Source of the DNA: an uncultured Gammaproteobacteria bacterium
Lineage (GTDB): Bacteria > Pseudomonadota > Gammaproteobacteria > PS1 > Pseudothioglobaceae
DNA length: 64,000 bases
Reading direction: 5' to 3'
NCBI GenBank assembly: GCA_913020715.1
Contig: CAJVZH010000007.1
Span: forward strand, 13,021-77,020
Every line of letters begins with the position of its first letter. The stretch's first letter is position 1. Below are positions 12,859-34,294 of the stretch, piece by piece. The notes beneath the pieces are model-generated. The model saw nothing but the letters and a program-made list of their open reading frames with translations. It was not told where the DNA came from and ran no database searches. A program made the position numbers and the translations under genes.

Positions 12859-13623
12859 CTAGTATTTACCACTCAATAACTCACCTGCTTCAGGAACATA
12901 AGTGCTCAAATTAAGTGATTTTAACATCTGCCAAGTAGTACAAATAGAGGAGCTAGTAACTGGTATTTGTAATATTTTTTCAACTTTGGCCACTGCGGCT
13001 AATGAAGGCATTTGCACACAAGCTGAGAGCACCAACACATCAATACCTTCCGTATCGACTTTTTTGAAGTGCTCAAGCAGGTTGTTTGGATCTTGCGCGG
13101 CAACCTCCAGATTATCTGGGATTTCAAGTGCAAGATAATCTTTTACTTTTATACCCTCTGATTCAATGTAGTCAACAACAAGTCTTGCCAAAGAGTCCAT
13201 ATAGGGACAAACAAAAGAAATGGTTTTGGCGCCCAGAGCGTGCAAGCCATCAATCAATGCGCCGGCACTGGTTACCACGGGCGCTGCCGCGTTATTTTCT
13301 TCAGTTATTTTTTGTAAGTTGAGCTGCGCATTTCGGTGGTAACCATTGCCCATTGACATAATGGCTACTAAGCAGGCATAGCCAAGAACGTCCATTCTGG
13401 CGTCAGACAGTTCGAGTGCGCAGCGGCCAGAATCAGCATCCATTGCTTGAAGCTCTTCTTTGGTTACATTTTTCATTCGCATACGACTTGAATGGAATGA
13501 AAAGCGCTCGGGTGAAATCCCTTCTCGGGCTCTAAGCATTGCTGGTATTTCGGTTTCCATTGTGACATTTGAGCTGGGCACAATTTGTCCAACTCTAATT
13601 AAGTTATTTTTCATTTTGCTCAT
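12859..13623 (-). CDS. maiA: Maleate cis-trans isomerase (Asp/Glu racemase fold)
   Basis: GQIVPSSNVTMETE, YACLVA and LSACVQMPS catalytic Cys pair, typical of MaiA/NicE. Confidence 0.85.
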   Translation of the reverse strand: MSKMKNNLIRVGQIVPSSNVTMETEIPAMLRAREGISPERFSFHSSRMRMKNVTKEELQAMDADSGRCALELSDARMDVLGYACLVAIMSMGNGYHRNAQLNLQKITEENNAAAPVVTSAGALIDGLHALGAKTISFVCPYMDSLARLVVDYIESEGIKVKDYLALEIPDNLEVAAQDPNNLLEHFKKVDTEGIDVLVLSACVQMPSLAAVAKVEKILQIPVTSSSICTTWQMLKSLNLSTYVPEAGELLSGKY

Positions 13624-14531
13624 CCTTTTATAACGGGGTTACGAATAGTGCCAATGCCCTCTATACCTGCCTCAATAATATCACCTGGCCACATCCATTC
13701 TTGTGGATCGCGCCCTGCGCCCACCCCTGATGGCGTTCCGGTGGCAATAATATCCCCTGGCTCTAAACGCATGCCGCTGCTAATATCTGCAATTAATTCA
13801 GGTATTTTAAAAAGCATAAATTTGGTATTAGAGTTTTGTTTCATCTCTCCGTTTTTCTTTAACCAAAGGTTAAGGTTGTGAGGATCTTTGACTTCATCAG
13901 CGGTGACGATGATCGGCCCCATTGGTGCGAAGCTATCCTGCCCTTTGGAAACAATCCATTGGCCCGCCCGCCTACAATCTCTTGCAGAAACATCGTTAAT
14001 AATTGTGTAACCAAAGACATGATTGAGTGCGTCTTCTTTAGGAATTGAGGATCCACCACTGCCGATAATGACTGCTAACTCAACCTCCCAATCGAGCTGT
14101 TGAGTAAGTGAGTTTCGATGCACAATCGGGCTATTCCAAGAAGTTACAGTTGTGGGTGGCTTTGTAAAAATAACCGGTTCTTGTGGAAGTTCTGCTGAGG
14201 TGTCGAGACTTCTGGCAGACTCAGCAACATGCTCAGTGTAGTTTAATCCAATGCCAAAAATATTCTTTTGCGGCCTGGGAATTGGCGCCAAAAAACGGGT
14301 ATCTGAAACCGCTGAAGTTGTACCTGCTGGCCAGTTGCCTTGATATTGCTTAATCAATTCCCCAAGTCGGGTTTTCGCCGAAATACCAGCATCGATAAAT
14401 GATTGCATGGTTGCCGGCAAATACTCGCCGGCTATTTCAGCCAAAAGATTAACATCGATAACTATATTGTCATCAATATATCCTAATCTGGCTTGTTCGT
14501 CTATTTTGATTCTGTATGTTGCGAGCTTCAT
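13620..14531 (-). CDS. Fumarylacetoacetate-hydrolase-family protein
   Basis: GIGLNYTEH, LDWEVEL, NDVSARD, SKGQDSF and PGDIIATGTPSGVG. Confidence 0.92.
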   Translation of the reverse strand: MKLATYRIKIDEQARLGYIDDNIVIDVNLLAEIAGEYLPATMQSFIDAGISAKTRLGELIKQYQGNWPAGTTSAVSDTRFLAPIPRPQKNIFGIGLNYTEHVAESARSLDTSAELPQEPVIFTKPPTTVTSWNSPIVHRNSLTQQLDWEVELAVIIGSGGSSIPKEDALNHVFGYTIINDVSARDCRRAGQWIVSKGQDSFAPMGPIIVTADEVKDPHNLNLWLKKNGEMKQNSNTKFMLFKIPELIADISSGMRLEPGDIIATGTPSGVGAGRDPQEWMWPGDIIEAGIEGIGTIRNPVIKG

Positions 14532-14555: not shown

Positions 14556-15674
14556 TTAAATAACCTGTTGGTGTCCATTATTTTGTTGATAAGGTTCTTC
14601 GAGATAAAATCCAAGTTTATCCATCACGGGAAAATCATTAAAAGAAAATAAACAGGCGTCATCAGAAGATGAGCTGTTTTTGTGCTCGTGCCAATGCCAA
14701 GAAGGCACACAGAATATGTCTTTTTCTTTCCAGTGAAACTCCTTGCCGTTGATAATCGATGTGCCAGAACCTTTAGCCACATTGTAGATAACATTACCTG
14801 TATGTCGGTGCGCTTTAGTGTGTTCTGCGGGACGCAGCATTTGCATGGAGGCGCTCATGGTTTGCATAATATAGCCTCCGTCCTTGGGGTTACTGTATCG
14901 CATTATAATGCCGTCAAAAGGGCATCCATCAGAGGCCTTAGCGTAATTTTGAAGTCCTTCATATGTTTCATCCCAACCAAACCGCATCAGAGGTGAGTAG
15001 GGTTTAGCCCATTTGTCATTAGCCGGGATTAAACCAGGAGAGCCGTAAATTAATGGAGAGTCATTAGTGGTGTATTTTGGCGTTTGAAAAATATCTTTAT
15101 GCACTGCGTAGTAATTAGCCTCCAATGCATTGGTAAGTGGGATGTCTAAGCCATCCTGCCAAATGGACGTTTTTCCTTCGTCATTTACACCGTGATCATG
15201 CCATGTGCCATTGGGTGTAATCACAAAATCGCGTGCACCAAACTCAATCTTATGGCCGTCAACTACTGTATATGCGCCAGCGCCTTCCATAATAAATCTC
15301 AGAGCGGAAGCGGCGTGTTTGTGCGCTGAGGTTTTTTCTCCGGGTTTCATAATTTGAATGCCACTAAACAGCCAACCACAAGCGGCACTCACCTCAGTGC
15401 GTTTTGGATTTTTTAGGTAGACCACCCTCCTGCCTGCTTTTTCGGGTGAAACCAGCTCAGAAGCCTTAACGACATAGGGACGAATGTCTTCAAATTTCCA
15501 TAAAACAGGTATAGAGTGTGCTGTGGGCTCCCAGGGCTCGATGTCATTGGCAACAGTCCATAGTGCACCGGTGTTGAATTGATTCAACTCTTTATAGTAA
15601 GATTTAAGTTGATCATCATCAGTGACAATGGCGCGGCCAATTTGGTTGTCTCTACCATCCGTTCTATTGCTCAT
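14556..15674 (-). CDS. Bicupin ring-cleavage dioxygenase, gentisate 1,2-dioxygenase family
   Basis: SGIQIMKPGE-x3-AHKH-x3-ALRFIMEG and TPNGTWHDH (HxH...H Fe ligands); second cupin AHRH...WHWHEH. Confidence 0.88.
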   Translation of the reverse strand: MSNRTDGRDNQIGRAIVTDDDQLKSYYKELNQFNTGALWTVANDIEPWEPTAHSIPVLWKFEDIRPYVVKASELVSPEKAGRRVVYLKNPKRTEVSAACGWLFSGIQIMKPGEKTSAHKHAASALRFIMEGAGAYTVVDGHKIEFGARDFVITPNGTWHDHGVNDEGKTSIWQDGLDIPLTNALEANYYAVHKDIFQTPKYTTNDSPLIYGSPGLIPANDKWAKPYSPLMRFGWDETYEGLQNYAKASDGCPFDGIIMRYSNPKDGGYIMQTMSASMQMLRPAEHTKAHRHTGNVIYNVAKGSGTSIINGKEFHWKEKDIFCVPSWHWHEHKNSSSSDDACLFSFNDFPVMDKLGFYLEEPYQQNNGHQQVI

Positions 15675-15710: not shown

Positions 15711-17324
15711 TTATTTTTTTAGCGAAAATCGTTGGATTTTCCCTGTCGCCGTTTTAGGAATGGATTCACAAAACACTATGGATCGAGGGTACTTGTAAGG
15801 CGCAATCAACTCTTTAACATGATTTTGCAGAATCTCAATAGTTTTGTTATTTTTCGCTTGATCCGATACAAGCACAATATGCGCTTGGACAATGCTACCT
15901 CGATCTTCATCATCGACACCAATAACAGCGCATTCATCTACGAACGGATGTTGCAGAAGTGCCGCCTCAACATCGGGAGCAGCAATGTTGTACCCCGATG
16001 AAATAATCATGTCATCATTGCGTGCAACAAAATGAAATGCGCCTGATTTGTCCATGGTAAAGCAATCGCCAGTCATATTCCAGCCATTTTTTACATAAGT
16101 TGTTTGGCGCTTATCTGCCAAATATCTACAACCCGTTGGACCCTTAATCGCAAGTTTTCCAATTGTGTTCGGAGGCGCTTCATTTCCGTCTTCATCAAGA
16201 ATAATTGCTTTATAGCCTGCGACTGGTTTTCCAGTACAAGAGGCTTGGTGATTGTCGGTTCGATTTGAAATAAAAATATGGAGCAATTCAGTTGCTCCAA
16301 TGCCATCAACCAGTGGTTTGCCAGTGGTATCAATCCAATCCTGATAAATGGAGGCGGGCAAAGTTTCGCCAGCAGAAACGGCTACACGCAACGTGGATAG
16401 GTCAGCACCTTCTTTTATTGCTGATAACATCACTTTATAGGCAGTAGGAGCAGTAAAACAAATGGTGGCTTTATATTTCTCAATCATGTCTATCAGCCCC
16501 TCAGGGGATGCTTGTTCGATTAGTGTTGCAGTCGCGCCAAAACGCAGTGGAAAGACCGCCAGACCCCCTAAACCAAAAGTGAAGGCAAGTGGTGGTGAAC
16601 CAATAAAAACATCTTTAGGGGTAACTTGTAGCACTTCTTTAGCATAAGTGTCGGCGATAGTCAGTAGGTCGCGATGAAAATGCATTGTTGCCTTGGGTTC
16701 ACCAGTAGTGCCTGAAGTAAAGCCTAAAAGGGCAACATCGTCACTACTAGTTTGGACAGCATTAAAATTAACGGACTTCTCCAACGCTAACTCGTCCAGC
16801 TCGGCCTCGTGGTTTGAAGTGCCATCAAAGCCCACTATTTGTTTAAGAAACGGGCTGTCGTTCGCACAATCATTTAATTCGTCCAACAGTCGGGTATCGC
16901 AAAGGGCAAAGTGAATTTGTGCCTTGTTTACAATTTTGCTTAATTCTCCAGATCGGAGCATGGGCATTGTATTAACAACAACCGCACCGACTTTTGTCGC
17001 TGCTAACCAGCAAGCGACCATTGCGGGGTTATTTGCGGATCGAATTAATACACGATTCCCCGACTCAATCTTATACTCCTCCAACAGAACGTTTGCTAGT
17101 CGATTGCTCCAGTCTGTCAACTCCTTATAAGTTCTTCTTCGGCCATTTCCTATTAAGGCAGTGTGGTCTCCAAAGCCGCTCTCAACCATCGTATCGGTTA
17201 GTTCATGGGCAATATTTAGTTGATCAGGGTAGTTGAAATTTTCTAATAATAGCTCTGGCCATTCAGAGGCTGGCGGTAAATTATCCCTCGAAAAAGTGTC
17301 GGTGTGTTGCGTCGGATTTAGCAT
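15711..17324 (-). CDS. Anthranilate (2-aminobenzoate)-CoA ligase, benzoate-CoA ligase family
   Basis: FTSGTTGEPK, SPPLAFTFGLGG, DGIGATELLHIF and TATGKIQRF. N-terminus (HTDTFSRDNLPP...YPDQLN) resembles AbmG-type ligases. Confidence 0.85.
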   Translation of the reverse strand: MLNPTQHTDTFSRDNLPPASEWPELLLENFNYPDQLNIAHELTDTMVESGFGDHTALIGNGRRRTYKELTDWSNRLANVLLEEYKIESGNRVLIRSANNPAMVACWLAATKVGAVVVNTMPMLRSGELSKIVNKAQIHFALCDTRLLDELNDCANDSPFLKQIVGFDGTSNHEAELDELALEKSVNFNAVQTSSDDVALLGFTSGTTGEPKATMHFHRDLLTIADTYAKEVLQVTPKDVFIGSPPLAFTFGLGGLAVFPLRFGATATLIEQASPEGLIDMIEKYKATICFTAPTAYKVMLSAIKEGADLSTLRVAVSAGETLPASIYQDWIDTTGKPLVDGIGATELLHIFISNRTDNHQASCTGKPVAGYKAIILDEDGNEAPPNTIGKLAIKGPTGCRYLADKRQTTYVKNGWNMTGDCFTMDKSGAFHFVARNDDMIISSGYNIAAPDVEAALLQHPFVDECAVIGVDDEDRGSIVQAHIVLVSDQAKNNKTIEILQNHVKELIAPYKYPRSIVFCESIPKTATGKIQRFSLKK

Positions 17325-17325
17325 C

Positions 17326-17805
17326 TTACTCTCCTTTCACCACTTTTAATTTTTCTTGTTTATCTGATTTGTTTTTCAGCAGTTGTTGAGAAATTCCCTC
17401 TAAAGACTCACTTAAGTAAATCGTCTCATTCTCGGGCAAGTGCTCTAGTAACTCGTTAATCCATTCTTTGTGAGCATTTGCTTGACGAGAAAATTCAAGT
17501 CGTCCTTTTTCGCTCAGGGCAACTTTAAGAATTCGTCGATCACCTATAACCGAACTTCTATCAACTAAGCCTTCAGAGCATAGGCGGTCTACAATGCCGG
17601 TTACATTGCCATTTGAAACTCTCAGTGCTCCAGAAAGTTGACTCATTTTTAAGCCCTCTGGATTTTGACTAAGTGCGGCCATCACATCAAAGCGAGGCAG
17701 GGTTGTGTTAAAGTTTGTGGCAAAGCGCTCTCGCATCTCGGCCTCAATTAAACGGGATGTTTTTAGTAAACGCAACCACAGACGTATAGGGTTTTTTTTA
17801 TCCAT
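17326..17805 (-). CDS. MarR-family transcriptional regulator of the abm-type locus
   Basis: IRLWLRLLK, TLPRFDVMAAL, VSNGNVTGIVDRL and DRR wing. Confidence 0.92.
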   Translation of the reverse strand: MDKKNPIRLWLRLLKTSRLIEAEMRERFATNFNTTLPRFDVMAALSQNPEGLKMSQLSGALRVSNGNVTGIVDRLCSEGLVDRSSVIGDRRILKVALSEKGRLEFSRQANAHKEWINELLEHLPENETIYLSESLEGISQQLLKNKSDKQEKLKVVKGE

Positions 17806-17847: not shown

Positions 17848-20145
17848 TTAGGCCCTTAAAATCACATCCGTTTCTTTTTTAGATACGGCTCGAGCTTGTT
17901 TACTGCCTTCGAGATAGGGCAATGGCGCTTGTAGGCAGGCGTCTCCAATAGAAATTCCTTCATTAATAACCCAATAAGGATTAAGTAGTTGTGCCCTTCC
18001 AATACAAACCAGGTCCGCTCTACCTGCTAAAAGAATAGAGTTTGCATGATCAGCTTTATAAATGTTGCCTACAGCCATTGTCGGCACATGAGCCTCGTTT
18101 CTGATCATGTCTGAGAATGGAGTCTGATACATTCGACCATAAACGGGTTTACATTCATTGGAAGTTTCGCCAGATGAAACATTAATAATATCGGCGCCTG
18201 CTTTTTTGAACATTTTAGCCACTTGAAGTCCGTCTTTTGGTAAGAGGCCGGCTTCGCCCAGCCAATCATGAGCAGAGATTCGGACCGATATCGGCATGTT
18301 TTTGGTTAGAGCATTGCGTATTGCCTGAAAAACTGCCAAGGGGTAGCGCATACGATTTTCAAGACTTGCGCCATAGCGGTCTTTCCTTTGGTTGGAAATC
18401 GGGGAAATAAAAGAAGAAAGCAAATAACCATGGCCAGCTTGAAGTTCAATCATATCAAAACCAGCCGATTCTGCCATCAGCGCAGCCTTAACAAACCCCT
18501 GGCAGACTTCATCCATCTCACTCTCGCTAATTTCTTGCGGTATTGCGTTGTCACTCGACCAAGTAATTGCTGATGCTGACACCAAAGGCCAATTGCCGGA
18601 TTCTAACGGTAAGTTTGAATTTTCCCAACCAACTTGACTTGATCCGCGTCGACCAGCATGGCCTATTTGACAGCAAACTTTTGCATAAGTTTGTTGGTGT
18701 ATAAAATCCACTATCCTGCCCCATTCTTTTTCGTGATTTGGCTGATAAAGTCCGGCACAGTTTGGGGTAATACGGCCAGATTCACAAACAGCGACCATCT
18801 CAGTGCATATCAAGCCAGCACCGCCTTTGGCTCGTTCAGTATAATGAGTAAAATGCCAATCATTAACACAGCCGTTTTGGGCTTTAAAGGTAGCTATAGC
18901 AGGGAATACAATACGGTTTATTAAGGTTAAGTTGCCCAAAGTAAAGGGCGTAAACATAGGGGATCGAGTTGGTTGATTTGAGTCGACAGCCGATTGTTTT
19001 TGAAACCAGTTTTCAGCACTATTTAGCCAAAGTGGGTCGCGTAAACGCAGGTTTTCATGACTAATGCGTTGCGACCTAGTAAGTAGCGAATAACTAAATT
19101 GAATTGGCTCAAAATCAATATAGCGCTCTATATTTTCAAACCATTCAAGACTGTTTCTTGCTGCCGATTGCAATCTTAGCACCTCCACCCTTCTTTCTTC
19201 TTGGTAGCGTTTAAATGCGAGCCCCATTGAGGGTTCTGAATGTAGGTAGTCTGCCAGCGCGATAGCGCTATCAAATGCTAGGCGAGTGCCGGACCCTATG
19301 GAGAAGTGAGCAGTTGCTGCGGAGTCTCCAATAAGAACAACATTTTTGTAATACCATTTTTCACATACAATTCTTGGGAAGTTCATCCATACAGCCGAGC
19401 CCCTCAAGTGTTCTGCGTTTGACTCAAGCGCATGGCTGCCCAGGTGTTTTTTGAAGATTTCTTCACAGACCTTAACTGATTCTTCTTTTGACATGCTTTC
19501 AAAACCAGTAGCCTCCCATGTCTCCTGAGAGCACTCAACAATAAAAGTAGCGGTATTGTTGTCGAACTGATAAACATGGCCCCAAAACCATCCATGTTCA
19601 GTTTGCTCAAAAATAAAAGTAAAGGCGCCGTCAAATTCTTGCTTTGTGCCCAGCCAAATAAATTTGCAAAGCCTAGTGTCAATATTTGGCTTAAATCTGT
19701 CGTTGTATTCACCCCTTGGTTGTGAGTTGATGCCATCAGTAGCAACAACCAGATCGTATTGGTGACGGTAATCTTCAGCCGAGGCGAAGGTTTTCTCAAA
19801 TTGAAGGACAACGCCAAGCTCTCGTGCACGTTGTTGGAGTATTATTAGCAATTTTTTTCTCCCAATCCCCGCAAAACCGTGGCCACTTGAAACGATTCTA
19901 TTGCCTTTAATGGTCACGGCAAGATCGTCCCAATAAGAGAAGTTATCTCGAATTTGGTTTGCGCTTATTGAATCATTTTTTTGAAGATTTTCTAAGGCGT
20001 CATCCGAAAGTACGACGCCCCAGCCAAAAGTGTCATTTGCCTTGTTTCTTTCTATGACAGTTACCTCGTGCAAGGGATTTCTGAGCTTCATAGAAATGGC
20101 AAAATAGAGACCAGCAGGGCCGCCTCCAAGACACACAATACGCAT
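17848..20145 (-). CDS. abmA: Bifunctional anthraniloyl/salicylyl-CoA 5-monooxygenase with OYE-like oxidoreductase domain (AbmA/SdgC family)
   Basis: N-terminal GGGPAGLY, TFGWGVV, GDSAATAHFSIGSGT and YSLLTRSQRISHENLRLRD; C-terminal old-yellow-enzyme TIM barrel (GHGYLLSSFISP, SLENRMR). Confidence 0.88.
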   Translation of the reverse strand: MRIVCLGGGPAGLYFAISMKLRNPLHEVTVIERNKANDTFGWGVVLSDDALENLQKNDSISANQIRDNFSYWDDLAVTIKGNRIVSSGHGFAGIGRKKLLIILQQRARELGVVLQFEKTFASAEDYRHQYDLVVATDGINSQPRGEYNDRFKPNIDTRLCKFIWLGTKQEFDGAFTFIFEQTEHGWFWGHVYQFDNNTATFIVECSQETWEATGFESMSKEESVKVCEEIFKKHLGSHALESNAEHLRGSAVWMNFPRIVCEKWYYKNVVLIGDSAATAHFSIGSGTRLAFDSAIALADYLHSEPSMGLAFKRYQEERRVEVLRLQSAARNSLEWFENIERYIDFEPIQFSYSLLTRSQRISHENLRLRDPLWLNSAENWFQKQSAVDSNQPTRSPMFTPFTLGNLTLINRIVFPAIATFKAQNGCVNDWHFTHYTERAKGGAGLICTEMVAVCESGRITPNCAGLYQPNHEKEWGRIVDFIHQQTYAKVCCQIGHAGRRGSSQVGWENSNLPLESGNWPLVSASAITWSSDNAIPQEISESEMDEVCQGFVKAALMAESAGFDMIELQAGHGYLLSSFISPISNQRKDRYGASLENRMRYPLAVFQAIRNALTKNMPISVRISAHDWLGEAGLLPKDGLQVAKMFKKAGADIINVSSGETSNECKPVYGRMYQTPFSDMIRNEAHVPTMAVGNIYKADHANSILLAGRADLVCIGRAQLLNPYWVINEGISIGDACLQAPLPYLEGSKQARAVSKKETDVILRA

Positions 20146-20318: not shown

Positions 20319-20726
20319 GTGGCATTCTCTGTTAATCAAAAAGTCCTTTTTAGGCACTGCGATCCTGCAGGAATCGTCTTTTATCCCAGGTATTATGAGA
20401 TGATGAACGATTGTGTGGAGGAGTTTTTTGATAAAACGCTTGGCTTTCCATTTAATGAACTACACGAGATTGGTGGTGTTCCGACGGCCAAGATCGAAAC
20501 CAAGTTTACCGCGCCGAGTCGGCAAGGCGATATATTGGAAATAGTGCTAAGATGCCTTAGGCTTGGGAATAGCAGCTTGAGCATACGAATAACTGCACGT
20601 TGCGGGGAAGAATTGCGATTTCAATCTGACTCAACGTTGGTGTTTATTGATAGAAGTGGCAAGCCTCAATCTTGGCATGCAAAAGTGGCACAGCTATTGG
20701 CGAAGTGTGTAAAGGAAGATTGTTAG
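20319..20726 (+). CDS. 4-hydroxybenzoyl-CoA-type (hotdog-fold) thioesterase
   Basis: FRHCDPAGIVFYPRYYEM with catalytic Asp; FTAPSRQGD. Confidence 0.9.
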   Translation: MAFSVNQKVLFRHCDPAGIVFYPRYYEMMNDCVEEFFDKTLGFPFNELHEIGGVPTAKIETKFTAPSRQGDILEIVLRCLRLGNSSLSIRITARCGEELRFQSDSTLVFIDRSGKPQSWHAKVAQLLAKCVKEDC

Positions 20727-20806: not shown

Positions 20807-21085
20807 ATGGTTTCTTCGATTGTGCTAATGAAAATTGAGAAAAACAAGGTGGGTGAGGTTGCTGAAAAGTTAACTGATATTCAGGGGGTCAGTGAAGTGT
20901 TTTCGGTCGCTGGGCGTTGCGATTTGGTGTGCATGGTTCGAGTGGCTGATAATGAGCAATTAGCTGAAGCTGTTACTGAAAGAGTTCTGAAGGTTGAAGG
21001 GGTGCTTGAAACAGAAACTATGATTGCGTTTCGTGTTTTTTCTAAGCACGATTTAGAGGGTATGTTTTCGGTAGGCCTTAACTAG
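20807..21085 (+). CDS. Stand-alone Lrp/AsnC ligand-binding-domain protein (no HTH)
   Basis: 92 aa after SD AAGGAG; EVFSVAGRCDLVCMVRV...VLKVEGVLETETMIAF matches the Lrp C-terminal RAM domain. Confidence 0.8.
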   Translation: MVSSIVLMKIEKNKVGEVAEKLTDIQGVSEVFSVAGRCDLVCMVRVADNEQLAEAVTERVLKVEGVLETETMIAFRVFSKHDLEGMFSVGLN

Positions 21086-21111: not shown

Positions 21112-22134
21112 ATGGATATTAATCTTCCTATCTTTAAGGCAGCGGCCGTTCAAGATTCTCCTGTATTTTTGAATGTTGATGCCACGATCGACAAAGTGTG
21201 TGCAATTATTGCAAAAGCAAGCGCTAACGGCGCCGACTTAGTGGCTTTTCCAGAAGTTTTTGTTTCGGGATACCCTTATTGGAATTGGATTATGAGCCCT
21301 ATTGATGGAGGCAAATGGTACGAAAAACTTTACCGTAATTCCATTGACGTACCCGGCCCCGCTGTAGAAAGAATATATCAAGCAGCCAAAGAGCATAATG
21401 TTGTTGTAGTTATCGGTGTTAACGAACGAGGCTCTCGTAGTTTGGGTGTTATTTACAATACAGTCTTGGTGATAAGTGAGCAAGGCGAACTTATTGGCAA
21501 GCATAGAAAATTAGTGCCCACTTGGGCTGAAAAGCTCACTTGGACAGGTGGAGATGGCTCCTCCTTAAATGTACATGATACAAAGGTAGGTCCTTTGGGC
21601 GTATTGGCTTGTGGTGAAAATACAAATACATTGGCTCGTTTTGCTCTCTTGGCGCAAGGTGAGTTGGTGCATGTTTCAAATTATATTGCCTTGCCGACTG
21701 CACCAAAAGACTACGATATGGCTAGAGCAATTGAAATTAGGACGGCCGCACATGCTTTTGAAGGGAAGGTTTTCAATATTACATCCTGTTCCACTATTTC
21801 TGAATACATGATCGAGCAGATGGAGCAAGATTGCCCAAATGCCCGCCAACTATTAACTCGAAGTCGAGGCTCTTGGACTGGCGTTATTGGGCCAGACGGT
21901 CAAGTCATTGGCGAGCCGCTGATTGACAAAGAGGGCATTGTTTACGCGGACATTAATCTTTCAAAATGCATACAACCTAAACAAATGCATGACATTGTTG
22001 GGCATTATAATCGTTTTGATATATTCGACTTTAAAGTTAATAAGTCCCCCCAGGAGGCGGTCTCTTTCACAACAAAAAACATCAGTGAAAAAAGTGGTGA
22101 AAACGAAGATACTGAAGATGATAGTAGCCTCTAA
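21112..22134 (+). CDS. Nitrilase / carbon-nitrogen hydrolase family protein
   Basis: Catalytic triad FPE, HRKLVPTWAEK and LACGENTN. Confidence 0.92.
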   Translation: MDINLPIFKAAAVQDSPVFLNVDATIDKVCAIIAKASANGADLVAFPEVFVSGYPYWNWIMSPIDGGKWYEKLYRNSIDVPGPAVERIYQAAKEHNVVVVIGVNERGSRSLGVIYNTVLVISEQGELIGKHRKLVPTWAEKLTWTGGDGSSLNVHDTKVGPLGVLACGENTNTLARFALLAQGELVHVSNYIALPTAPKDYDMARAIEIRTAAHAFEGKVFNITSCSTISEYMIEQMEQDCPNARQLLTRSRGSWTGVIGPDGQVIGEPLIDKEGIVYADINLSKCIQPKQMHDIVGHYNRFDIFDFKVNKSPQEAVSFTTKNISEKSGENEDTEDDSSL

Positions 22135-22167: not shown

Positions 22168-23364
22168 ATGTCTGCCGAATACATTTGCAAAAAAAACCAT
22201 TTTTATCTACCAGATGACTTGATTTATCTCGATGGAAATTCACTTGGCCCGATGCCTCTTAAGGCTTTGGAGTACATGCCAAGTGTAATGCAAAATCAGT
22301 GGGGCGAAAAGCTTATTGGCGGCTGGAATGATGCCGGCTGGTATGACCAGCCCATAAGGGTTGGAGATCGCATCGCTCGGTTAGTTGGCGCGGACACAGG
22401 CTACATTGTAACGGGTGAAACGCTTTCGATAAAGGTCTACCAAGCGCTGGCTGCAGCCTTAGATATTAATAGTGACAGGCGAGTTATTCTATCTGATAAC
22501 GGCAACTTCCCTACTGATTTATATATTGCTGAAGGACTTATTAAAACCCTTGATAAGGGCCATCAGCTCGCATGCCCTAATCCTGAAGAGGTTGAGGATA
22601 GTATTGATGACTCGGTTGCAGTATTGATGCTTACTGAAGTCGATTATAAAACCTCCAGAAGGCATGACATGAAGCGCTTGACTGAAAAAGCTAGAGAGCA
22701 TGGGGTGATAACAATTTGGGACCTGGCCCACTCAGCAGGAGCTATACCGATTGATTTACAAGGTTGTGACATTGATTTTGCTATAGGTTGTACCTATAAG
22801 TACCTAAATGGTGGCCCCGGTTCTCCCGCTTTTATATATGTTGCGAAGCGGCATTCCAATATAGCCACGCCTGCGCTTTCGGGGTGGATGGGCCATCAAG
22901 CGCCTTTTTCCTTTGAACAAAGCTATCGGGCGCATGAGGGAACAAGTCGCATGCGTGTGGGCACTCCGCCTGTGCTTGCTCTATCCGTGCTTGAAGCCGC
23001 TTTAGATGTGTTTGATGGTGTTGATATGCACACCCTCTATCAGCGATCAAGAGTACTGTCGGAATTGTTTATCAAGGAGGTTATGGGCTCCTGCCCAAGT
23101 CTAATCTTAGCCAGTCCAGAAAAATCTGAATTGCGGGGCTCTCATGTTTCGTTCTATTTCGAGCATGCATTTTCTGCCATTCAAGCTTTGATTGATTTGG
23201 GCGTGGTAGGTGACTTTAGGGCTCCAAATGTGATGAGGTTTGGCATAACGCCTCTATATTTAGAAGAGGCAGACATCTCCCTTGCTGCGCAAAAAATTGC
23301 AAGTGTTGTTAATCAGGGTTTATGGAAAAAACAAATTTATCAAAAAAAAGGGGCGGTAACGTGA
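22168..23364 (+). CDS. kynU: Kynureninase
   Basis: [30 protein letters not shown] (PLP Lys), LSGWMGH and GDFRAP. Confidence 0.95.
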
Positions 23365-24197
23365 GTGAGTACTACAATCCAAAGGCAGATGGCGCACAAA
23401 TGTCTTTTGACGGGCGAATGTCTTACGGTGATTATCTAAATCTTGAGTACATCTTAAATGCACAAAAACCGCTTTCTGGCGCGCATGACGAAATGTTGTT
23501 TATTATTCAGCATCAGACTTCAGAGCTATGGATGAAGCTATGTGTTCACGAGCTTCTTTCTGCTCGTTTAGCTCTGCAAAACGACAACTTGCCGGAATCA
23601 TTTAAAATGCTCACTCGTGTAGCTCGAATAATGGAGCAACTTAATAACGCCTGGGATGTGCTTCGAACAATGACACCAAGCGAGTACACACAGTTTAGAG
23701 ACGACTTGGGTCAAAGTTCAGGATTCCAATCGCACCAATATAGACAAATTGAATTTATCTTGGGAAATAGAAATCGGTCGCTATTAAAGCCGCATGAACA
23801 CCAACCGAGAATACATGAGTTGCTACTTGAGGAATTAGACACGCCCAGCTTGTATGATGAAGTGATATTCTTGCTTAGGCGTCAAGGCTTGGAGATTGAA
23901 GATTGCGCCCTAAAAAGAAATTCTGATCAGCCTTATGAAAGTAATGCAAGCGTATTAAATGCCTGGAGACAGGTATATTTAGACCCGGAAAAGTATTGGT
24001 CTTGTTATGAACTGGGTGAAAAATGTGTTGATGTAGAGGATTATTTTCGGCGATGGCGCTTTAATCATTTAACAACCGTTCAGCGTATTATAGGTTTTAA
24101 ACGTGGTACAGGGGGCACCAGTGGGGTGCACTATTTAAAACGCATGCTTGATGTTGAATTATTCCCAGAGCTTTGGGATGTAAGAACTGAGTTGTAG
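23361..24197 (+). CDS. kynA: Tryptophan 2,3-dioxygenase
   Basis: [31 protein letters not shown] and [17 protein letters not shown] start overlaps the kynU TGA. Confidence 0.96.
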
Positions 24198-24300: not shown

Positions 24301-25122
24301 TTACATGCGGCTAGCAAACAAAAGCTTGCACAGGGGGCTCTCAGCATTGCGAAGTCCATCAATCACATTAAAATGGTGTTTATTTTTATCGATATAAACC
24401 TTATGTGAGATGTCAAAACCTAGCCACATATCCTTAAGAAGTTGGCTTTGACGCAAAAACTCAGGGCGTTCATTTTCGCCCACCCAGCAAACATGCTCAA
24501 TTCCTTTTCGTGGGGATAGTAAAACAGGGCTATGGCTTTGAGCGGTTTCAAAATCAATATTTAATTCTTTGTTCATTTTAGTATGCATGAGGGGCCTAAG
24601 ATCGTAGACACCAGAAATTGACACACACCTCTTAATTTTTTGCTTTGTTGAGATGGATAGATGGGAGTCTGTGCATATTAATCGACTAACAAGAAAACCA
24701 CCCGCAGAGTGGCCAGCAAGATATATCGGCCCATCAATTTCACCAGCAACAACATCAAGAGCTATAGTCGTCTCATCTATTATTTGCGGAATATTTGTGC
24801 CGGGACACAGAGTGTAAGAAATGATAGCCACTGCATATCCACTCTCTAAGCCGCCTTTTGCAAGGTGAGACCAATAACTTTTATCAAAATCAAGCCAGTA
24901 ACCACCATGCACAAAAAACATCAACCCCTTTGGTTTGTCTTTAGGTAGAAAAAGATCGTATTTATTTCTTGTTTTATCGCCATACGGGACGTTAAGCATG
25001 GCTTTGTTGTTTATAGCAACCTCTTCTCTAAATGCCCTGGATTCGTTTTCCCAGCTAGTGATATAGTCGGTTGCCCCCTCTATATAGATAGCATTTGCGA
25101 ATTCATCATCCCAGTTTTTCAA
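24301..25122 (-). CDS. Alpha/beta-hydrolase, probable kynurenine formamidase (arylformamidase)
   Basis: FVHGGYW, GHSAGG nucleophile elbow, SGVYDL and KHHFNVI; adjacent to kynA/kynU. TTG start. Confidence 0.75.
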   Translation of the reverse strand: MKNWDDEFANAIYIEGATDYITSWENESRAFREEVAINNKAMLNVPYGDKTRNKYDLFLPKDKPKGLMFFVHGGYWLDFDKSYWSHLAKGGLESGYAVAIISYTLCPGTNIPQIIDETTIALDVVAGEIDGPIYLAGHSAGGFLVSRLICTDSHLSISTKQKIKRCVSISGVYDLRPLMHTKMNKELNIDFETAQSHSPVLLSPRKGIEHVCWVGENERPEFLRQSQLLKDMWLGFDISHKVYIDKNKHHFNVIDGLRNAESPLCKLLFASRM

Positions 25123-25440: not shown

Positions 25441-26349
25441 TTAGGCCAGCGCCCTCAGCTGCTCAATCAGTTGTTTCCTAGTATTGGTTGGAAAATTAGA
25501 CAAAGCTTGTTGTTCGCTATTTTTTGCAATTTGCAGTAGTTTGGCAACTTTTTTTCTTCCAGCTTCTGTTGCGCTTACAGTGTGCTCATCGTAGTCCAGC
25601 CAGCCTAGCGACTGTAAACTTTCAGCCGCCTCTCTTGCCTCACGCTGGCCACTTAAAATGCGAAAATGCAGACGTGACATATCGACCTGATCTTGATCAT
25701 ACAAGTTAGCCAATATGCGCCAACCTGTAACGCTAAGACCTGCCTCTTCCACAGCTAGGTACAGAACATCTGCAAGTTGCTTGCGAGCTGCCGATAAATG
25801 ATAAAGTAGTAAATCATCGACTGCACTACCCAAACTATCTAGGTCATCACTGACTTGTGGCGGCGGTGCTAGCGCTTCCGCAGTGGCATAACTGCCACCA
25901 GAGAATACCAGTCCACGTTTAGGGCTAGTTGTAAAAGATTGCACTTCAGCGACAATTATCGCATGATCGCCTCCTTCATAAACCGCCCAAGCGCTACATT
26001 GGAATTGGCAAATTGCCCCCCTAAGCATATGACAACCCCCTAGACCAAATTCACTATCAATGCCAGAGAATTTGTCATTGCCCTGCTGGGAAAATTTGTT
26101 CGATAATTGAACCTGATCGGCGCTAAGTACATTGATGCAAAAATGCTTGGCTTCGATAAATGCCTTGGCGCCATGTGCATCGTGAGCCACTGACCAAAGC
26201 ACCAAAGCTGGCTCCAAAGATACTGAATTAAAGCTACTTGCAGTCATGCCAATAGGCTCGCCGTCAGCGTCACAAGTGGTAATGACTGTTACCCCGGTGG
26301 CGAATGTGGCTAGCGCATTTCTAAATTGATTTGTATCAAAATCTAACAT
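25441..26349 (-). CDS. hpaC: Flavin reductase (HpaC-like) fused to a C-terminal MarR-like domain
   Basis: FRNALATFATGVTVIT, GMTASSFNSVSLEP and GGDHAI, followed by about 140 aa of winged-helix-like sequence (LSVTGWRILANL). Confidence 0.8.
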   Translation of the reverse strand: MLDFDTNQFRNALATFATGVTVITTCDADGEPIGMTASSFNSVSLEPALVLWSVAHDAHGAKAFIEAKHFCINVLSADQVQLSNKFSQQGNDKFSGIDSEFGLGGCHMLRGAICQFQCSAWAVYEGGDHAIIVAEVQSFTTSPKRGLVFSGGSYATAEALAPPPQVSDDLDSLGSAVDDLLLYHLSAARKQLADVLYLAVEEAGLSVTGWRILANLYDQDQVDMSRLHFRILSGQREAREAAESLQSLGWLDYDEHTVSATEAGRKKVAKLLQIAKNSEQQALSNFPTNTRKQLIEQLRALA

Positions 26350-26358
26350 CCTGCGCTC

Positions 26359-27795
26359 CTAGTCCAACATTGTCTCAACTTTAGCAATCATTTCGTCTTT
26401 TGGGTAAATGTCGAAATAACCTGCTGCCATTATCGCTGGCGGGCCAAAGAAGAAACGCTCGTAAAGACACTGACGACCAGCAAAACCAGAAACCGCTGCA
26501 TCATGCGCTAAGCGAAAAAGCGCAACTCGGTCTTTGGCATCTAGGTTGGCTACTTGAAAGTATTGCTCTACATCGTCAGCAATTGCATTGCTAAAATCAA
26601 GCTCACAAGGCGTGGCCATTAAAGAGCTGGAACCCAATAATTGCACCAATTCAAGCAAGCGAGGGTAGTTGCGTGGCATCGTATTGCGTGCAGTGTCCAA
26701 AGGTCTCCGCAAGGGTACAAAATTCCCCCACTTATCTTCATGTGCTTGGTTTTCACCTGCAAACAACATAGCACGCTGTGATTCTGCAATCCACATAGCT
26801 TCAGCAATCATGCCTTTGGTTCCCATATCTTTGTCGCGGTTAGTAGATTTTGCCATAGCACATAACAAGCCAACGAAAAATTCAGCTTTGGCGAGCTTAC
26901 CACACACAACTTGATGCATCATATGCACCACAGCATTTGTTTCAGCGAAAGAGACATTACACTGCAGGGGGTCTCTGTACATAAAAACTCTTTCCCAAGG
27001 CACAAGTACATTGTCAAAAACAACAACAGCGTCCATTTCCTCAAACCGAGAGGACAAAGGCGCATCAAAGTTAGATTTGCCATGATCGTAAGGATCGCGA
27101 CAAATCATTTTCAGACCTTTTGTTGCGATAGGAATAGCAAAAGCGAAGGCAAAAGGTATGTTATCTGGACTTGCTTTAAGAAGTGTTGAAGGAAAAACCT
27201 CAATCTCATCGGCAGTGGGACCAAGCGTGGCAAGAAGTCTTGCTCCCTTAACGATTATGCCTGTGTCCGTTTCTTTAACCACATGAAGAGCAACTTCATC
27301 GGTGAACTTGCCTTGCTTGGCCAGATCAAAGTTCTTTTGCGGGTTGACCAAAGTGTGGGTAAGAACCTTGTCACCCTTTCTAATTTCATTGTAGAAGTTA
27401 ACCATATTTTCTGAAAAATTGGTCTCACCTTTACCCAGAAAAGCATTGGCTGCAGCGAATGACATAACTGATGCATTCTTGTAGTCAGGTGTACGGCCAA
27501 ACATACCGGCAGACCAGCTTGCCCATTCGTAAAATGAAGCGCCGCGTCGTTGAACATCCTTCTCTGACTTAGGTATTAAAAACGATGTGGCACAACGGTC
27601 ACCATCTTCATCCAAGTAAGTTATTTTGTCTTGATATTTAAGGTTGTGCTGGCGATCTAAAAACTCACCCAAAGTGTGTGCACCACGACACACTGCCGGA
27701 TGCTTTGTGACGTCCTCAATGCGGTCGCCATTGATCCAAATATCACGATCATCGCGTAAGCCATCCAAATACTCTTTGCCGGTGCGTATACCCAT
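26359..27795 (-). CDS. hpaB: 4-hydroxyphenylacetate 3-monooxygenase, oxygenase component
   Basis: RTGKEYLDGL, GMFGRTPDY, HTLVNPQ, GARLLATL, RFEEMDAVVVFDNV and LYERFFFG. Confidence 0.9.
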   Translation of the reverse strand: MGIRTGKEYLDGLRDDRDIWINGDRIEDVTKHPAVCRGAHTLGEFLDRQHNLKYQDKITYLDEDGDRCATSFLIPKSEKDVQRRGASFYEWASWSAGMFGRTPDYKNASVMSFAAANAFLGKGETNFSENMVNFYNEIRKGDKVLTHTLVNPQKNFDLAKQGKFTDEVALHVVKETDTGIIVKGARLLATLGPTADEIEVFPSTLLKASPDNIPFAFAFAIPIATKGLKMICRDPYDHGKSNFDAPLSSRFEEMDAVVVFDNVLVPWERVFMYRDPLQCNVSFAETNAVVHMMHQVVCGKLAKAEFFVGLLCAMAKSTNRDKDMGTKGMIAEAMWIAESQRAMLFAGENQAHEDKWGNFVPLRRPLDTARNTMPRNYPRLLELVQLLGSSSLMATPCELDFSNAIADDVEQYFQVANLDAKDRVALFRLAHDAAVSGFAGRQCLYERFFFGPPAIMAAGYFDIYPKDEMIAKVETMLD

Positions 27796-27917
27796 AGTTT
27801 CCTCCTATAAATGAGTGTGAATCAGTCCTTTTCAATCTTGTAAAAAGCGAATTATTCGCGAAAATCCTTCAATATCCATATTAGCTTAAAGATACTTTTA
27901 ATACATAAAATACAAAA

Positions 27918-28367
27918 TTAATTGGGGTCATTAATTTTTTGCACCAGCTCTTCAAGTAACTCGTACAACAATTCCATCTTCCCATAACCAAATGTATCAG
28001 TAATGTGTAAATAAAGAGCCTCGCTCTCCGGTGCGATAAGTTGAAATAGCTTGTTACCCCGCTCCGTCAAGATGATGATAGAACGGCGGCGATCTTTGGT
28101 CGAAACGCTGCGCAACACAAGACCACGTTTAGACAAATTTTGCACGATCCGTGTAAGACTTGGCATTAGTAAAAAGCAATTTTTAGAGATTTCTGTCATC
28201 TCCAATCCATCGGATTCGTTTAGTACGCGTAATACTCTCCATTGTTGCGGAGACAAATCGTGCGCTCGTAAGTGAGGAACAAAGGTTTTCATGACTGATT
28301 CACGAGCTTTCAGCAGTGCCATTGGCAGTGAATGATCAAAGGCGCGGATGTTATTTGAGGACTTCAT
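27918..28367 (-). CDS. hpaR: Homoprotocatechuate operon repressor (MarR family)
   Basis: SLPMALLKARESVM, LSPQQWRVLRVL and LLMPSLTRI. ATG 28367 chosen; the longer ORF-track start lies inside the upstream gene. Confidence 0.9.
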   Translation of the reverse strand: MKSSNNIRAFDHSLPMALLKARESVMKTFVPHLRAHDLSPQQWRVLRVLNESDGLEMTEISKNCFLLMPSLTRIVQNLSKRGLVLRSVSTKDRRRSIIILTERGNKLFQLIAPESEALYLHITDTFGYGKMELLYELLEELVQKINDPN

Positions 28368-29208
28368 CTTTGACTTCGTTGCATAATACACCGACCCCCT
28401 CAACTTCCACTTCGACAACATCACCCGGCGCAAGAAATCTCGGTGGATCAAAGCGTGCACCAGCACCATTAGGTGTACCAGTTGCAATCACATCGCCTGG
28501 TTTAAGCTCAAAGAAAGTTGACAAATAGTGAATCTGATAAGCGATTGGAAACATCATATTGGCGGTCGTGTCGTCCTGGCGCAACTCGCCATTGACACGC
28601 GTCTTAATGCGCATGTTTTCATATTGCTCAGGACCGAATTCATCGGCGCTCACTAACCACGGACCTATCGATCCCGAATGCACAAAGTTTTTGCCTTGGG
28701 TGACATTAAATTTGGCGTGTCTAACCCAGTCACGCAGCGTCCCTTCATTCATAATACTCAAGCCCGCAATATGTTGGTAAGCCTCTTCCTGTGGAATTCT
28801 TCGACCCCTCTTGCCGATAACAACAACGATTTCGCCTTCATAATCGAGCTTGTGAGATTCAGGCGGTCGAATCAGTGGTGCTCCGTGAGCTGTCAGTGAA
28901 TCAGGTGTGCGCATAAAGACACTTGGATATTTTGGTGGCTCACTACCATCTTTGTACTCTTCATTACGATTGGCATAGTTAACGCCAATGCAAATAATCT
29001 TTTCAGGATTCGTAATGGGCGGAAGTAGCTTAACTTCTTGTAATTGCAACCGAGAATCGTAGTCATCAAGGTTTAGGCTAGATATTTTGTCATCTGAAAT
29101 GGCTTGCTTTAGACTTGTGCTAATCGCAGCCAGGTCAACGACAACATCATTGTCAAGCAGGGCACCCCAAGAATACTGTTGATTATTATTAAAACTGACT
29201 AAACGCAT
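28351..29208 (-). CDS. hpaG: FAH-family isomerase/decarboxylase of the hpa pathway (HpaG-like, single domain)
   Basis: KIICIGVNY, LDYEGE, NEGTLRDW, TQGKNF and PGDVIATGTP; co-transcribed with hpaR. Confidence 0.8.
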   Translation of the reverse strand: MRLVSFNNNQQYSWGALLDNDVVVDLAAISTSLKQAISDDKISSLNLDDYDSRLQLQEVKLLPPITNPEKIICIGVNYANRNEEYKDGSEPPKYPSVFMRTPDSLTAHGAPLIRPPESHKLDYEGEIVVVIGKRGRRIPQEEAYQHIAGLSIMNEGTLRDWVRHAKFNVTQGKNFVHSGSIGPWLVSADEFGPEQYENMRIKTRVNGELRQDDTTANMMFPIAYQIHYLSTFFELKPGDVIATGTPNGAGARFDPPRFLAPGDVVEVEVEGVGVLCNEVKDEVLK

Positions 29209-29228
29209 TAAACTTCCTTAATGATTAA

Positions 29229-29283
29229 CGGTGATAAATTGACATAAGCACCTGATTGCCGGTGATAAATTGACATAAGCACC
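29229..29283. repeat. Exact 24-bp direct repeat x2 (CGGTGATAAATTGACATAAGCACC), 31-bp period
   Basis: Copies at 29229-29252 and 29260-29283, read directly. Confidence 0.95.
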
Positions 29284-29302
29284 ATTATAATGAATATATT
29301 AC

Positions 29303-29332
29303 TTGACAAGATATTATTTAACATGTTAAATT
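29303..29332 (+). promoter_or_regulatory. Sigma70 promoter of the hpaE operon overlapped by a perfect 16-bp palindrome (HpaR operator candidate)
   Basis: TTGACA at 29303-29308; TG-n-TAAATT at 29324-29332; ATTTAACATGTTAAAT at 29316-29331. Confidence 0.65.
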
Positions 29333-29359
29333 ATAAGGCCTTATTAGTGGGCAATCAAA

Positions 29360-30877: not shown

Positions 30878-30880
30878 TAG

Positions 30881-31195
30881 ATGAGCTTGTATCAGACGCA
30901 AAAATTGCTCTACATGCTTAATAAAAACCCAAAGTTGCAAGTGACTTTTCTTGCAGATCAAGACTCGGTCCTAAAGGACTACAAACTAAGCGACGAAGAG
31001 ATTGACGCGTTAAAAAAACCCGATATAGGCTTGCTGTATGTGCTTGGTGTTAATGGTCAAATCTTGATGCACTATGCAGCTATATGTGGCTTCGCATGGC
31101 CCGAATACATTCAAGCGATGCGAGACGGGCTCGAAGAGCACGGCAATGTGCGAAATGGTCTTTACGTTACTACCGACGGTAAGGGGGCGATATGA
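30881..31195 (+). CDS. LigA-like small (alpha) subunit of an extradiol dioxygenase
   Basis: MSLYQTQKLLYMLN...DYKLSDEEIDAL...LLYVLGVNGQILM pattern; overlaps the LigB-like gene via ATGA. Confidence 0.75.
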   Translation: MSLYQTQKLLYMLNKNPKLQVTFLADQDSVLKDYKLSDEEIDALKKPDIGLLYVLGVNGQILMHYAAICGFAWPEYIQAMRDGLEEHGNVRNGLYVTTDGKGAI

Positions 31196-32016: not shown

Positions 32017-32019
32017 AGA

Positions 32020-33212: not shown

Positions 33213-33215
33213 TTA

Positions 33216-34022: not shown

Positions 34023-34107
34023 ACCCAAAACCCTGTAGATGAAAAAAACCTGGTGATATCTTTCTCTACTCCTCCTGTGAGGCAATTAGTCATTCTCAAT
34101 GCAACTT

Positions 34108-34168
34108 CTATTTTAATCTTAAAATATTAATATATAAATATTTTAATCTTAAAATATTAATATGTTAA
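34108..34168. repeat. 25-bp direct repeat x2 (30-bp period) built from palindromic boxes upstream of dctP
   Basis: TATTTTAATCTTAAAATATTAATAT at 34109-34133 and 34139-34163; each contains (A)TATTTTA-ATCT-TAAAATAT. Confidence 0.9.
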
Positions 34169-34294
34169 ACGATTTTATGTACAATGAAATAGCTATGGAA
34201 TATATTTCGTGCCAAATTGACGTATAAATATACGTTGTTAGTATTAAATTTATTCTGTGGTTTTTATAAATAAAATAAAATAAAAGGAGAACAT

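What the first reader, a model, noticed from the sequence alone, without database searches (positions are those of the whole stretch)
21112..22134. Nitrilase-family enzyme with a CGENTN nucleophile motif as a possible maleamate amidohydrolase
Seen: the E-K-C triad is intact, but the Cys context is LACGENTN rather than the CWE(H/N) typical of true nitrilases. It is co-transcribed with kynU/kynA, and no nitrile source is evident in the locus. Established: the known maleamate amidase NicF is an isochorismatase-family enzyme. Inference: this could be a non-orthologous maleamate or maleamylpyruvate amidase.
Basis: partly seen in the sequence, partly recalled or inferred. Interest (0 to 1): 0.55.

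Follow-up and report, generated by a model that had tools for sequence, protein, structure and literature searches.

The report
Nitrilase ending an anthranilate breakdown route
This gene encodes a nitrilase-type enzyme that nearly always sits beside a ring-opening oxygenase and a hydrolase, and it probably frees the nitrogen in an apparently undescribed bacterial route for breaking down anthranilate from tryptophan, indole and the plant hormone auxin.

Summary
Observation confirmed: intact 340-aa gene, triad E48/K133/C167, motif LACGENTN. The motif argument fails. A proven nitrilase (6ZBY) has CAEH, CGENTN also occurs in unlinked relatives, and sequence and fold are branch-1 nitrilase, not amidase.

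The context is strong. In 80 genomes of three phyla the subfamily lies beside a gentisate-type dioxygenase (76), FAH hydrolase (72) and maleate isomerase (68). Three alternative upstream modules all point to 5-hydroxyanthranilate. The kynU/kynA link is incidental (2 and 4 of 80).

The gene is often lost while dioxygenase and FAH stay, so it probably acts last, on the C4 fragment, giving maleate plus ammonia (about 0.68). NicF is in none of 200 dioxygenase loci, whereas a second true nitrilase (Blr3397 type) sometimes fills the slot. I therefore rank cis-3-cyanoacrylate (0.38) slightly above maleamate (0.30). Nothing was assayed.

No searchable paper describes the route. This scan noted the module before on other DNA (Flavobacterium and others), and the nitrile idea came from there. 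New here: the partner dioxygenase is the crystallised 3BU7 type, and the module sits in iad auxin-degradation loci.

The parts
21112..22134 (+). Branch-1 nitrilase-clade C-N hydrolase (CGENTN subfamily); the finding
12859..13623 (-). Maleate cis-trans isomerase
   Evidence: E 7e-100 to PDB 4FQ7
13620..14531 (-). Fumarylacetoacetate-hydrolase-family acylpyruvate hydrolase (FAH)
   Evidence: beside the nitrilase in 72 of 80 loci
14556..15674 (-). Bicupin gentisate-type 1,2-dioxygenase, 67% identical to R. pomeroyi GDOsp (3BU7); proposed 5-hydroxyanthranilate 1,2-dioxygenase
   Evidence: E 1e-178 to 3BU7; keeps Q107, W172, D174
15711..17324 (-). Aryl-CoA ligase, probably anthranilate-CoA ligase
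   Evidence: best solved relative 4WV3 anthranilate-CoA ligase, E 1e-78; below TIGR02262 cut-off
17326..17805 (-). MarR-family regulator
17848..20145 (-). Salicylyl-CoA 5-hydroxylase / 2-aminobenzoyl-CoA monooxygenase-type flavoprotein (HYD)
   Evidence: PRK08255 equivalog above cut-off, 1148 vs 1078 bits
20146..20318 (.). AT-rich divergent intergenic region, likely promoters of both operons
   Evidence: consensus matches only
20319..20726 (+). Hotdog acyl-CoA thioesterase
   Evidence: 54 of 80 loci
20807..21085 (+). Stand-alone Lrp/AsnC ligand-binding domain protein
   Evidence: PF01037
22168..23364 (+). Kynureninase KynU
   Evidence: TIGR01814 above cut-off
23361..24197 (+). Tryptophan 2,3-dioxygenase KynA (in-frame GTG start inferred; the listed ORF starts at 23322)
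   Evidence: TIGR03036 above cut-off
24301..25122 (-). Alpha/beta-hydrolase, likely Afmid-type kynurenine formamidase (HGGYW, GHSAG motifs)
   Evidence: no cyclase-type KynB in the genome

Best explanation
The protein is a branch-1 nitrilase that performs the last, nitrogen-releasing step of a CoA-dependent anthranilate route. Inferred order: Trp -> kynurenine -> anthranilate (KynA, formamidase, KynU) -> anthraniloyl-CoA (ligase) -> 5-hydroxyanthraniloyl-CoA (HYD) -> 5-hydroxyanthranilate (thioesterase). The GDOsp-type dioxygenase opens the ring between C1 and C2 with the nitrogen still on C2. FAH removes pyruvate. The nitrilase hydrolyses the C4 nitrogen-bearing fragment through a Cys167 acyl-enzyme to maleate plus NH3, and the isomerase gives fumarate. 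This shared core has about 0.68. Within it I rank the nitrile, cis-3-cyanoacrylate, first: the cyclic imidate formed in the dioxygenase could eliminate the enolate and leave a nitrile. Shown here: gene identities, linkage, loss and replacement patterns. Inferred: every substrate and product.
For: (1) Best solved relatives are all nitrilases or cyanide (di)hydratases: E 1e-63 to 1e-40 against 1e-10 or weaker for amidases; the first 25 Foldseek hits of a pLDDT-82 model are the same group. (2) 80 genome loci, 29 genera, three phyla: dioxygenase 76, FAH 72, isomerase 68, HYD 55, thioesterase 54. (3) Entry modules are alternatives that converge on the 2-aminobenzoyl skeleton: among 56 long loci, ligase+HYD 24, IorAB+HYD 20, never both; kyn genes 3; indole oxygenase-like, cyclase and IorAB in Sphingobacterium. 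(4) The nitrilase is lost or broken while dioxygenase and FAH stay, which places it after FAH. (5) A different, NIT4-like CWEN nitrilase (E 1e-103 to 6I00) fills the same slot in 5 metagenome loci. In Achromobacter all 46 dioxygenase-positive genomes without CGENTN have it and 11 of 13 with CGENTN lack it. It is 70% identical to the gene that, by gene order, is blr3397 of the iad locus, a nitrilase in vitro (PMC4070871, PMC3537687) induced by auxin together with iorA, blr3412 and blr3414 (PMC3788728). (6) No isochorismatase-fold gene in 200 dioxygenase loci, while four nicotinate clusters carry NicF near their isomerase.
Against: No assay. I know of no dioxygenase that makes a nitrile by ring cleavage (own knowledge); the nearest precedent proposes an amide plus an amidase (aminohydroquinone, MnpC/MnpE; PMC5604080). 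The Achromobacter complementarity is one clade, so one independent contrast. In two rhizobial samples most dioxygenase-bearing genomes have neither nitrilase at my thresholds (19 of 25; about 41 of 65), and the NIT4-like gene also occurs without the dioxygenase. Four of five CGENTN-positive rhizobial genomes have no maleate isomerase. The R. pomeroyi dioxygenase is described as acting on gentisate. The identity of the replacing enzyme with Blr3397 rests on gene order and my memory of the sequence, not on a direct sequence comparison.
Confidence: 0.38

Rival explanations
1. One reading: same route, but ring cleavage gives the amide, FAH releases maleamate, and the protein is a nitrilase-derived maleamate amidohydrolase that replaces NicF.
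For: All linkage evidence; no NicF in the genome; amide-forming cleavage proposed for aminohydroquinone with an amidase gene in the cluster (PMC5604080); maleamate to maleate to fumarate is the known end of nicotinate catabolism (own knowledge); subfamily-specific pocket residues W138, K141, G168, Y191 could shift reaction type (PMC6930498).
Against: Branch-1 sequence and fold. When the gene is missing, NicF never appears in the locus (0 of 200) but another true nitrilase does. The Cys+1 residue varies among true nitrilases.
Confidence: 0.3
2. Nitrogen leaves before or during ring opening (gentisate route of Cain 1968, or deaminating cleavage), and the nitrilase is an accessory enzyme that feeds an outside nitrile such as indole-3-acetonitrile or 2-aminobenzonitrile into the route, or removes a side product.
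For: The partner dioxygenase is described as a gentisate dioxygenase; a 5-hydroxyanthranilate to gentisate route is reported for Nocardia opaca (PMC4539516); the nitrilase is often dispensable; Blr3397 has low activity on indole-3-acetonitrile.
Against: The gene stays with the lower genes (directly before the dioxygenase in 41 of 80 loci, directly before the isomerase in 28) whatever the entry module, including loci with no auxin genes such as this window. No deaminase candidate recurs in the loci.
Confidence: 0.17
3. The enzyme acts on the C7 ring-cleavage product (maleamylpyruvate or its nitrile) before FAH, giving maleylpyruvate.
For: It is most often adjacent to the dioxygenase; FAH-family maleylpyruvate hydrolases exist (6JVV).
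Against: FAH is retained intact in loci where the nitrilase is broken or gone, which suggests that FAH accepts the direct cleavage product.
Confidence: 0.08
4. It is the kynurenine formamidase of the kynU/kynA operon.
For: Same operon as kynU/kynA; no KynB cyclase in the genome.
Against: An Afmid-type hydrolase is adjacent; kyn genes accompany only 2-4 of 80 homologs, and in L033 and L060 an Afmid-like gene is there too.
Confidence: 0.02

Closest known systems
Branch-1 nitrilases: Synechocystis Nit6803 (3WUY), P. fluorescens EBC191 NitA (6ZBY), 8UXU, cyanide dihydratases
   Same: Fold, E-K-C-E catalytic set, GYP tyrosine (Y54), C-terminal GHY.R.D motif; 33-38% identity in structural alignments.
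   Different: Own clade with Gly after the Cys, Tyr191 at the Trp188 position, W138 and K141 in the PTxxEx loop; below the TIGR04048 cut-off; tied to a ring-cleavage cassette.
Blr3397 of Bradyrhizobium USDA110 (NIT4-like nitrilase)
   Same: Appears in the same gene context (iad locus; same slot in other cassettes) and seems interchangeable with the CGENTN enzyme.
   Different: Only about 33% identical, CWENYM motif, separate clade; travels with a flavin-reductase-like gene and an MFS transporter; natural substrate not reported in the papers I could read.
NicF maleamate amidohydrolase of nicotinate (nic) clusters
   Same: Would give the same product, maleate, for the same type of isomerase.
   Different: Isochorismatase fold; found near the isomerase in nic clusters and in none of 200 loci of this dioxygenase.
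Gentisate pathway with GDOsp of Ruegeria pomeroyi (SPOA0115, 3BU7)
   Same: The dioxygenase is the same type (67%), and its gene lies directly after a CGENTN nitrilase and before FAH and isomerase.
   Different: It was studied as a gentisate enzyme; the cassette suggests an amino-substituted natural substrate and has no maleylpyruvate isomerase among recurring genes.
Aromatoleum (Azoarcus) evansii 2-aminobenzoyl-CoA route
   Same: Aryl-CoA ligase plus flavin monooxygenase/reductase; 5-hydroxyanthraniloyl-CoA is a reported side product (PMC3534580).
   Different: That route reduces the ring and uses beta-oxidation (PMC4539516); here a thioesterase, dioxygenase, FAH, nitrilase and isomerase follow instead.
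iad auxin-degradation locus (Variovorax, Achromobacter, Bradyrhizobium)
   Same: Rhizobial iad-type loci carry iorBA, this dioxygenase, FAH, thioesterase and, in 22 of 65 sampled genomes, the CGENTN gene.
   Different: The published route stops at anthranilate and the main text does not mention nitrilase or gentisate (PMC9613470); the window has no iad genes.

Membership tests
Nitrilase superfamily | CN_hydrolase domain and E-K-C triad | tested here: met
   PF00795 E 1e-37; E48, K133, C167 invariant
Branch-1 true nitrilases | Closest sequence and structural relatives are nitrilases or cyanide (di)hydratases | tested here: met
Branch-1 true nitrilases | CWE(H/N) consensus at the nucleophile | tested here: not met
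   CGENTN; but the feature is not strict, since 6ZBY has CAEH and many relatives have CGE, CYE or CFE
Branch-1 true nitrilases | Hydrolysis of a nitrile to acid plus NH3 | not testable with these tools
   needs an enzyme assay
Nit6803 (nit1C) family, TIGR04048 | Score above 502.6 bits | tested here: not met
   252 bits
NicF maleamate amidohydrolase | Isochorismatase fold (PF00857) | tested here: not met
   only PF00795 matches; no PF00857 gene in the genome
NicF maleamate amidohydrolase (works like) | Linked to maleate isomerase | tested here: met
   68 of 80 loci; 13 of 13 Achromobacter genomes; but only 1 of 5 rhizobial genomes
NicF maleamate amidohydrolase (works like) | Hydrolyses maleamate | not testable with these tools
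   needs an enzyme assay
Nitrilase-fold amidases (aliphatic amidase, formamidase, omega-amidase, carbamylases) | Family score or nearest structure among amidases | tested here: not met
   38-44 bits against cut-offs above 400; PDB amidases E 1e-10 or weaker
Gentisate 1,2-dioxygenase class (partner gene) | Three-His site plus Q, W and D residues that bind the carboxylate and the 5-hydroxyl | tested here: met
   H118, H120, H159, Q107, W172, D174 invariant; role of D174 from PMC10306065. TIGR02272 score is below cut-off.

The most novel reading that the evidence does not exclude
A cupin dioxygenase opens 5-hydroxyanthranilate and turns the aromatic amine into a nitrile, so that a dedicated nitrilase (the CGENTN subfamily, or Blr3397 where it substitutes) has an endogenous catabolic substrate, cis-3-cyanoacrylate. 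This would be a new way for cells to make a nitrile and would complete tryptophan, indole and auxin breakdown in many bacteria.
Probability: 0.33. Interest if true: 0.82.

Novelty: new variant of a known kind. Interest (0 to 1): 0.58.

Why it matters
Natural substrates of most bacterial nitrilases are unknown (own knowledge), and the published iad auxin route ends at anthranilate. This cassette offers one testable answer to both. It is widespread (Bacteroidota, Pseudomonadota, Actinomycetota) and would add a fifth aerobic anthranilate route to the four reviewed in PMC4539516. The test is cheap, because the R. pomeroyi dioxygenase (3BU7) and Blr3397 have already been purified and 5-hydroxyanthranilate has been used as a test substrate. 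Either outcome is new: a nitrilase-derived maleamate amidase, or a nitrile-forming ring cleavage. The specific claim about the CGENTN motif carries little weight.

Tried and rejected
Literature: 'CGENTN' gave one irrelevant paper; maleamate plus nitrilase gave one irrelevant paper; anthraniloyl-CoA, nitrilase, maleate isomerase and isatin combinations gave none; iad plus gentisate plus nitrilase gave only a review. The GDOsp paper (PMC2492823) is not held, so its kinetics and substrate range were not read. The Caballeronia paper has no mention of the terms. The library lacks most subscription journals.

The first metagenome scan with the dioxygenase alone found nothing; it was repeated with an alignment. 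The first Achromobacter tree had ten rows on the wrong strand and was discarded; the corrected tree cut the complementarity to one event. Complementarity did not generalise to the rhizobial samples; these searches score only about 10 candidates per genome and may miss genes. The aldoxime dehydratase search was uninformative. The structure model is poor in loops 141-147 and 293-305, so no pocket or docking claim is made. No complex prediction was run. Rejected: the motif as a marker of function, kynurenine formamidase, and kyn linkage as evidence.

Full report
Observation. The gene is real and intact: 21112-22134 (+), 340 aa, Pfam CN_hydrolase. E48, K133, E140 and C167 are invariant, and the Cys context is LACGENTN. 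It is followed at 33 bp by kynureninase and then by tryptophan 2,3-dioxygenase. A 98% identical protein is labelled Candidatus Thioglobus. None of 36 congeners searched has an ortholog; nine have more distant nitrilases at about 40%. The 94.7% complete genome has no isochorismatase-fold gene and no KynB.

What the protein is. By sequence its solved relatives are nitrilases and cyanide (di)hydratases (E 1e-63 to 1e-40); amidases of the superfamily score 1e-10 or weaker. An AlphaFold model (pLDDT 82) gives the same order in Foldseek. The motif does not argue against nitrilase activity. EBC191 NitA has Ala after the Cys (PMC6930498). CGE variants are common among 50%-clusters. CGENTN itself occurs in plasmid-borne relatives at 43-53% identity that have no dioxygenase or isomerase nearby. 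The useful unit is the tight subfamily at about 58% identity or more, which forms one clade in a FastTree tree (27 rows, SH 94).

The window. Two divergent operons and one convergent gene. Leftward: flavin aryl-CoA hydroxylase (PRK08255 above cut-off), MarR, aryl-CoA ligase (best PDB hit anthranilate-CoA ligase), cupin dioxygenase, FAH hydrolase, maleate isomerase (E 7e-100 to 4FQ7). Rightward: thioesterase, Lrp domain, the nitrilase, kynU, kynA. An Afmid-like hydrolase converges on kynA. The dioxygenase is 67% identical to GDOsp of Ruegeria pomeroyi (3BU7, SPOA0115). In R. pomeroyi that gene lies directly after a CGENTN nitrilase and before FAH and isomerase. It keeps D174, which binds the 5-hydroxyl of gentisate (PMC10306065).

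Forward linkage. All 80 best genome loci (29 genera, three phyla) have LACGENTN. The dioxygenase is present in 76, FAH in 72, isomerase in 68, hydroxylase in 55, thioesterase in 54, kynA in 4 and kynU in 2. Among 56 long loci the CoA ester is supplied either by a ligase (24) or by IorAB (20 with the hydroxylase), never both. Sphingobacterium loci add a styrene-monooxygenase-like gene and a cyclase. Two loci have kynA, formamidase and kynU with no hydroxylase. These entries converge on a 2-aminobenzoyl skeleton, so nitrogen has to be released somewhere, and no deaminase candidate recurs. This step is inference.

Reverse linkage. Starting from the dioxygenase, 26 of 80 metagenome loci have CGENTN and 5 have a different nitrilase with CWENYM; of 28 long loci, 12 have CGENTN, 4 the other, 12 neither. 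In Achromobacter, 59 of 62 genomes have the dioxygenase and 13 have CGENTN, always in its cluster. In a sample of a rhizobial genus (unnamed by the tool; Bradyrhizobium by my inference), 65 of 201 have the dioxygenase and 22 have CGENTN directly upstream of it. The loci fetched are mostly iad-type; four hold broken remnants of the nitrilase and six lack it cleanly, with FAH intact. So the nitrilase needs the dioxygenase, but not the reverse. That fits a last step on the C4 fragment and disfavours maleamylpyruvate.

Amide or nitrile. The replacing enzyme is NIT4-like (E 1e-103 to 6I00) and lies in a separate clade. It occupies the same position in homologous cassettes (L150 against L058). All 46 Achromobacter genomes with the dioxygenase but no CGENTN have it, and 11 of 13 CGENTN genomes lack it. 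The CGENTN genomes form one clade, so this is a single contrast. In two rhizobial iad loci without CGENTN it sits just before the reductase and Rieske genes, at 70% identity. That gene order matches blr3397 to blr3415 as annotated in an auxin transcriptome, where blr3397 rises 3.6-fold, the dioxygenase blr3412 20.8-fold and iorA 30.7-fold (PMC3788728). Blr3397 is a nitrilase in vitro. NicF-like genes occur in none of 200 dioxygenase loci, although four nicotinate clusters show them near the isomerase. Against this: many rhizobial genomes have neither nitrilase, four of five CGENTN-positive ones lack the isomerase, and the nearest chemical precedent proposes an amide (PMC5604080).

Mechanism, most likely. 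Ring opening of 5-hydroxyanthranilate between C1 and C2 passes through a cyclic imidate. Attack by the iron-bound hydroxide gives an amide; loss of the N-H proton with release of the stabilised enolate gives a nitrile (own chemical reasoning, untested). FAH then removes pyruvate, and Cys167 hydrolyses the C4 fragment to maleate and ammonia. I give this core 0.68, split 0.38 nitrile and 0.30 amide; a C7 substrate 0.08; an accessory or feeder role with earlier deamination 0.17; formamidase 0.02.

Novelty. The review of aerobic anthranilate routes lists four, none with nitrogen retained through a 1,2-cleavage (PMC4539516). The iad paper ends at anthranilate. My searches found no paper on this enzyme group or route, within a library that lacks most subscription journals. 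The loss pattern, the replacement by a Blr3397-type nitrilase, the NicF exclusion and the link to 3BU7 were tested here. Verdict: a real, uncharacterised nitrilase subfamily in a probably undescribed route; new variant of a known kind; interest 0.58.

Noticed in passing
L169 (R. pomeroyi megaplasmid NC_006569, 111593-125953): The cassette has IorAB, thioesterase, an aldehyde dehydrogenase and a class III-type aminotransferase but no hydroxylase, which hints at an already 5-hydroxylated amine substrate such as serotonin or 5-hydroxykynuramine.
   Followed up: no
L033:5413-13071 and L060:5468-13847: Divergent kynA (about 41% to the window's, below the TIGR03036 cut-off), kynU, formamidase, permease, nitrilase, dioxygenase and FAH with no hydroxylase: a possible 5-hydroxytryptophan route.
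   Followed up: partly
L221-L238 (rhizobial iad-type loci): No aryl-CoA hydroxylase gene within the fetched 20 kb, so the source of the 5-hydroxyl is unexplained; nitrilase remnants in L223, L224, L225 and L227 show repeated decay.
   Followed up: partly
L007:5003-5611, L152:13048-13683, L194:2446-3063: A flavin-reductase-like gene (PF01613) recurs in 40 of 80 loci and travels with the Blr3397-type nitrilase; it is absent from the window's cluster and has no assigned role.
   Followed up: no
L209, L211, L212, L215, L217, L219, L220: In many Xanthobacteraceae-like genomes the dioxygenase is an orphan among housekeeping genes (beside carA or ribonuclease D-like genes), with no FAH or nitrilase nearby.
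   Followed up: partly
L179:1435-3743: In Pigmentiphaga the maleate isomerase sits apart from the cassette with a LysR gene and a NicF-like gene (43% to a nic-cluster NicF); in Achromobacter it sits with LysR only (L190, L191).
   Followed up: no
L015:7666-9873: A fused cytochrome P450-reductase gene lies between FAH and the nitrilase in one rhizobial cassette; it may supply the hydroxylated substrate.
   Followed up: no
window 25441-37193: A 4-hydroxyphenylacetate (hpa) cluster adjoins the finding, with a two-subunit LigAB-type dioxygenase in place of HpaD and a TRAP transporter; unexpected aromatic catabolism for a 1.55-Mb Thioglobus-like genome.
   Followed up: no
G000:C18:577-1758 and C20:3714-4457: The genome holds a second kynureninase-like gene (41%) and a second formamidase-like hydrolase (31%) elsewhere.
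   Followed up: no
window 20807-21085: A stand-alone Lrp ligand-binding domain without a DNA-binding helix precedes the nitrilase; it was seen in only one other locus (L098).
   Followed up: no
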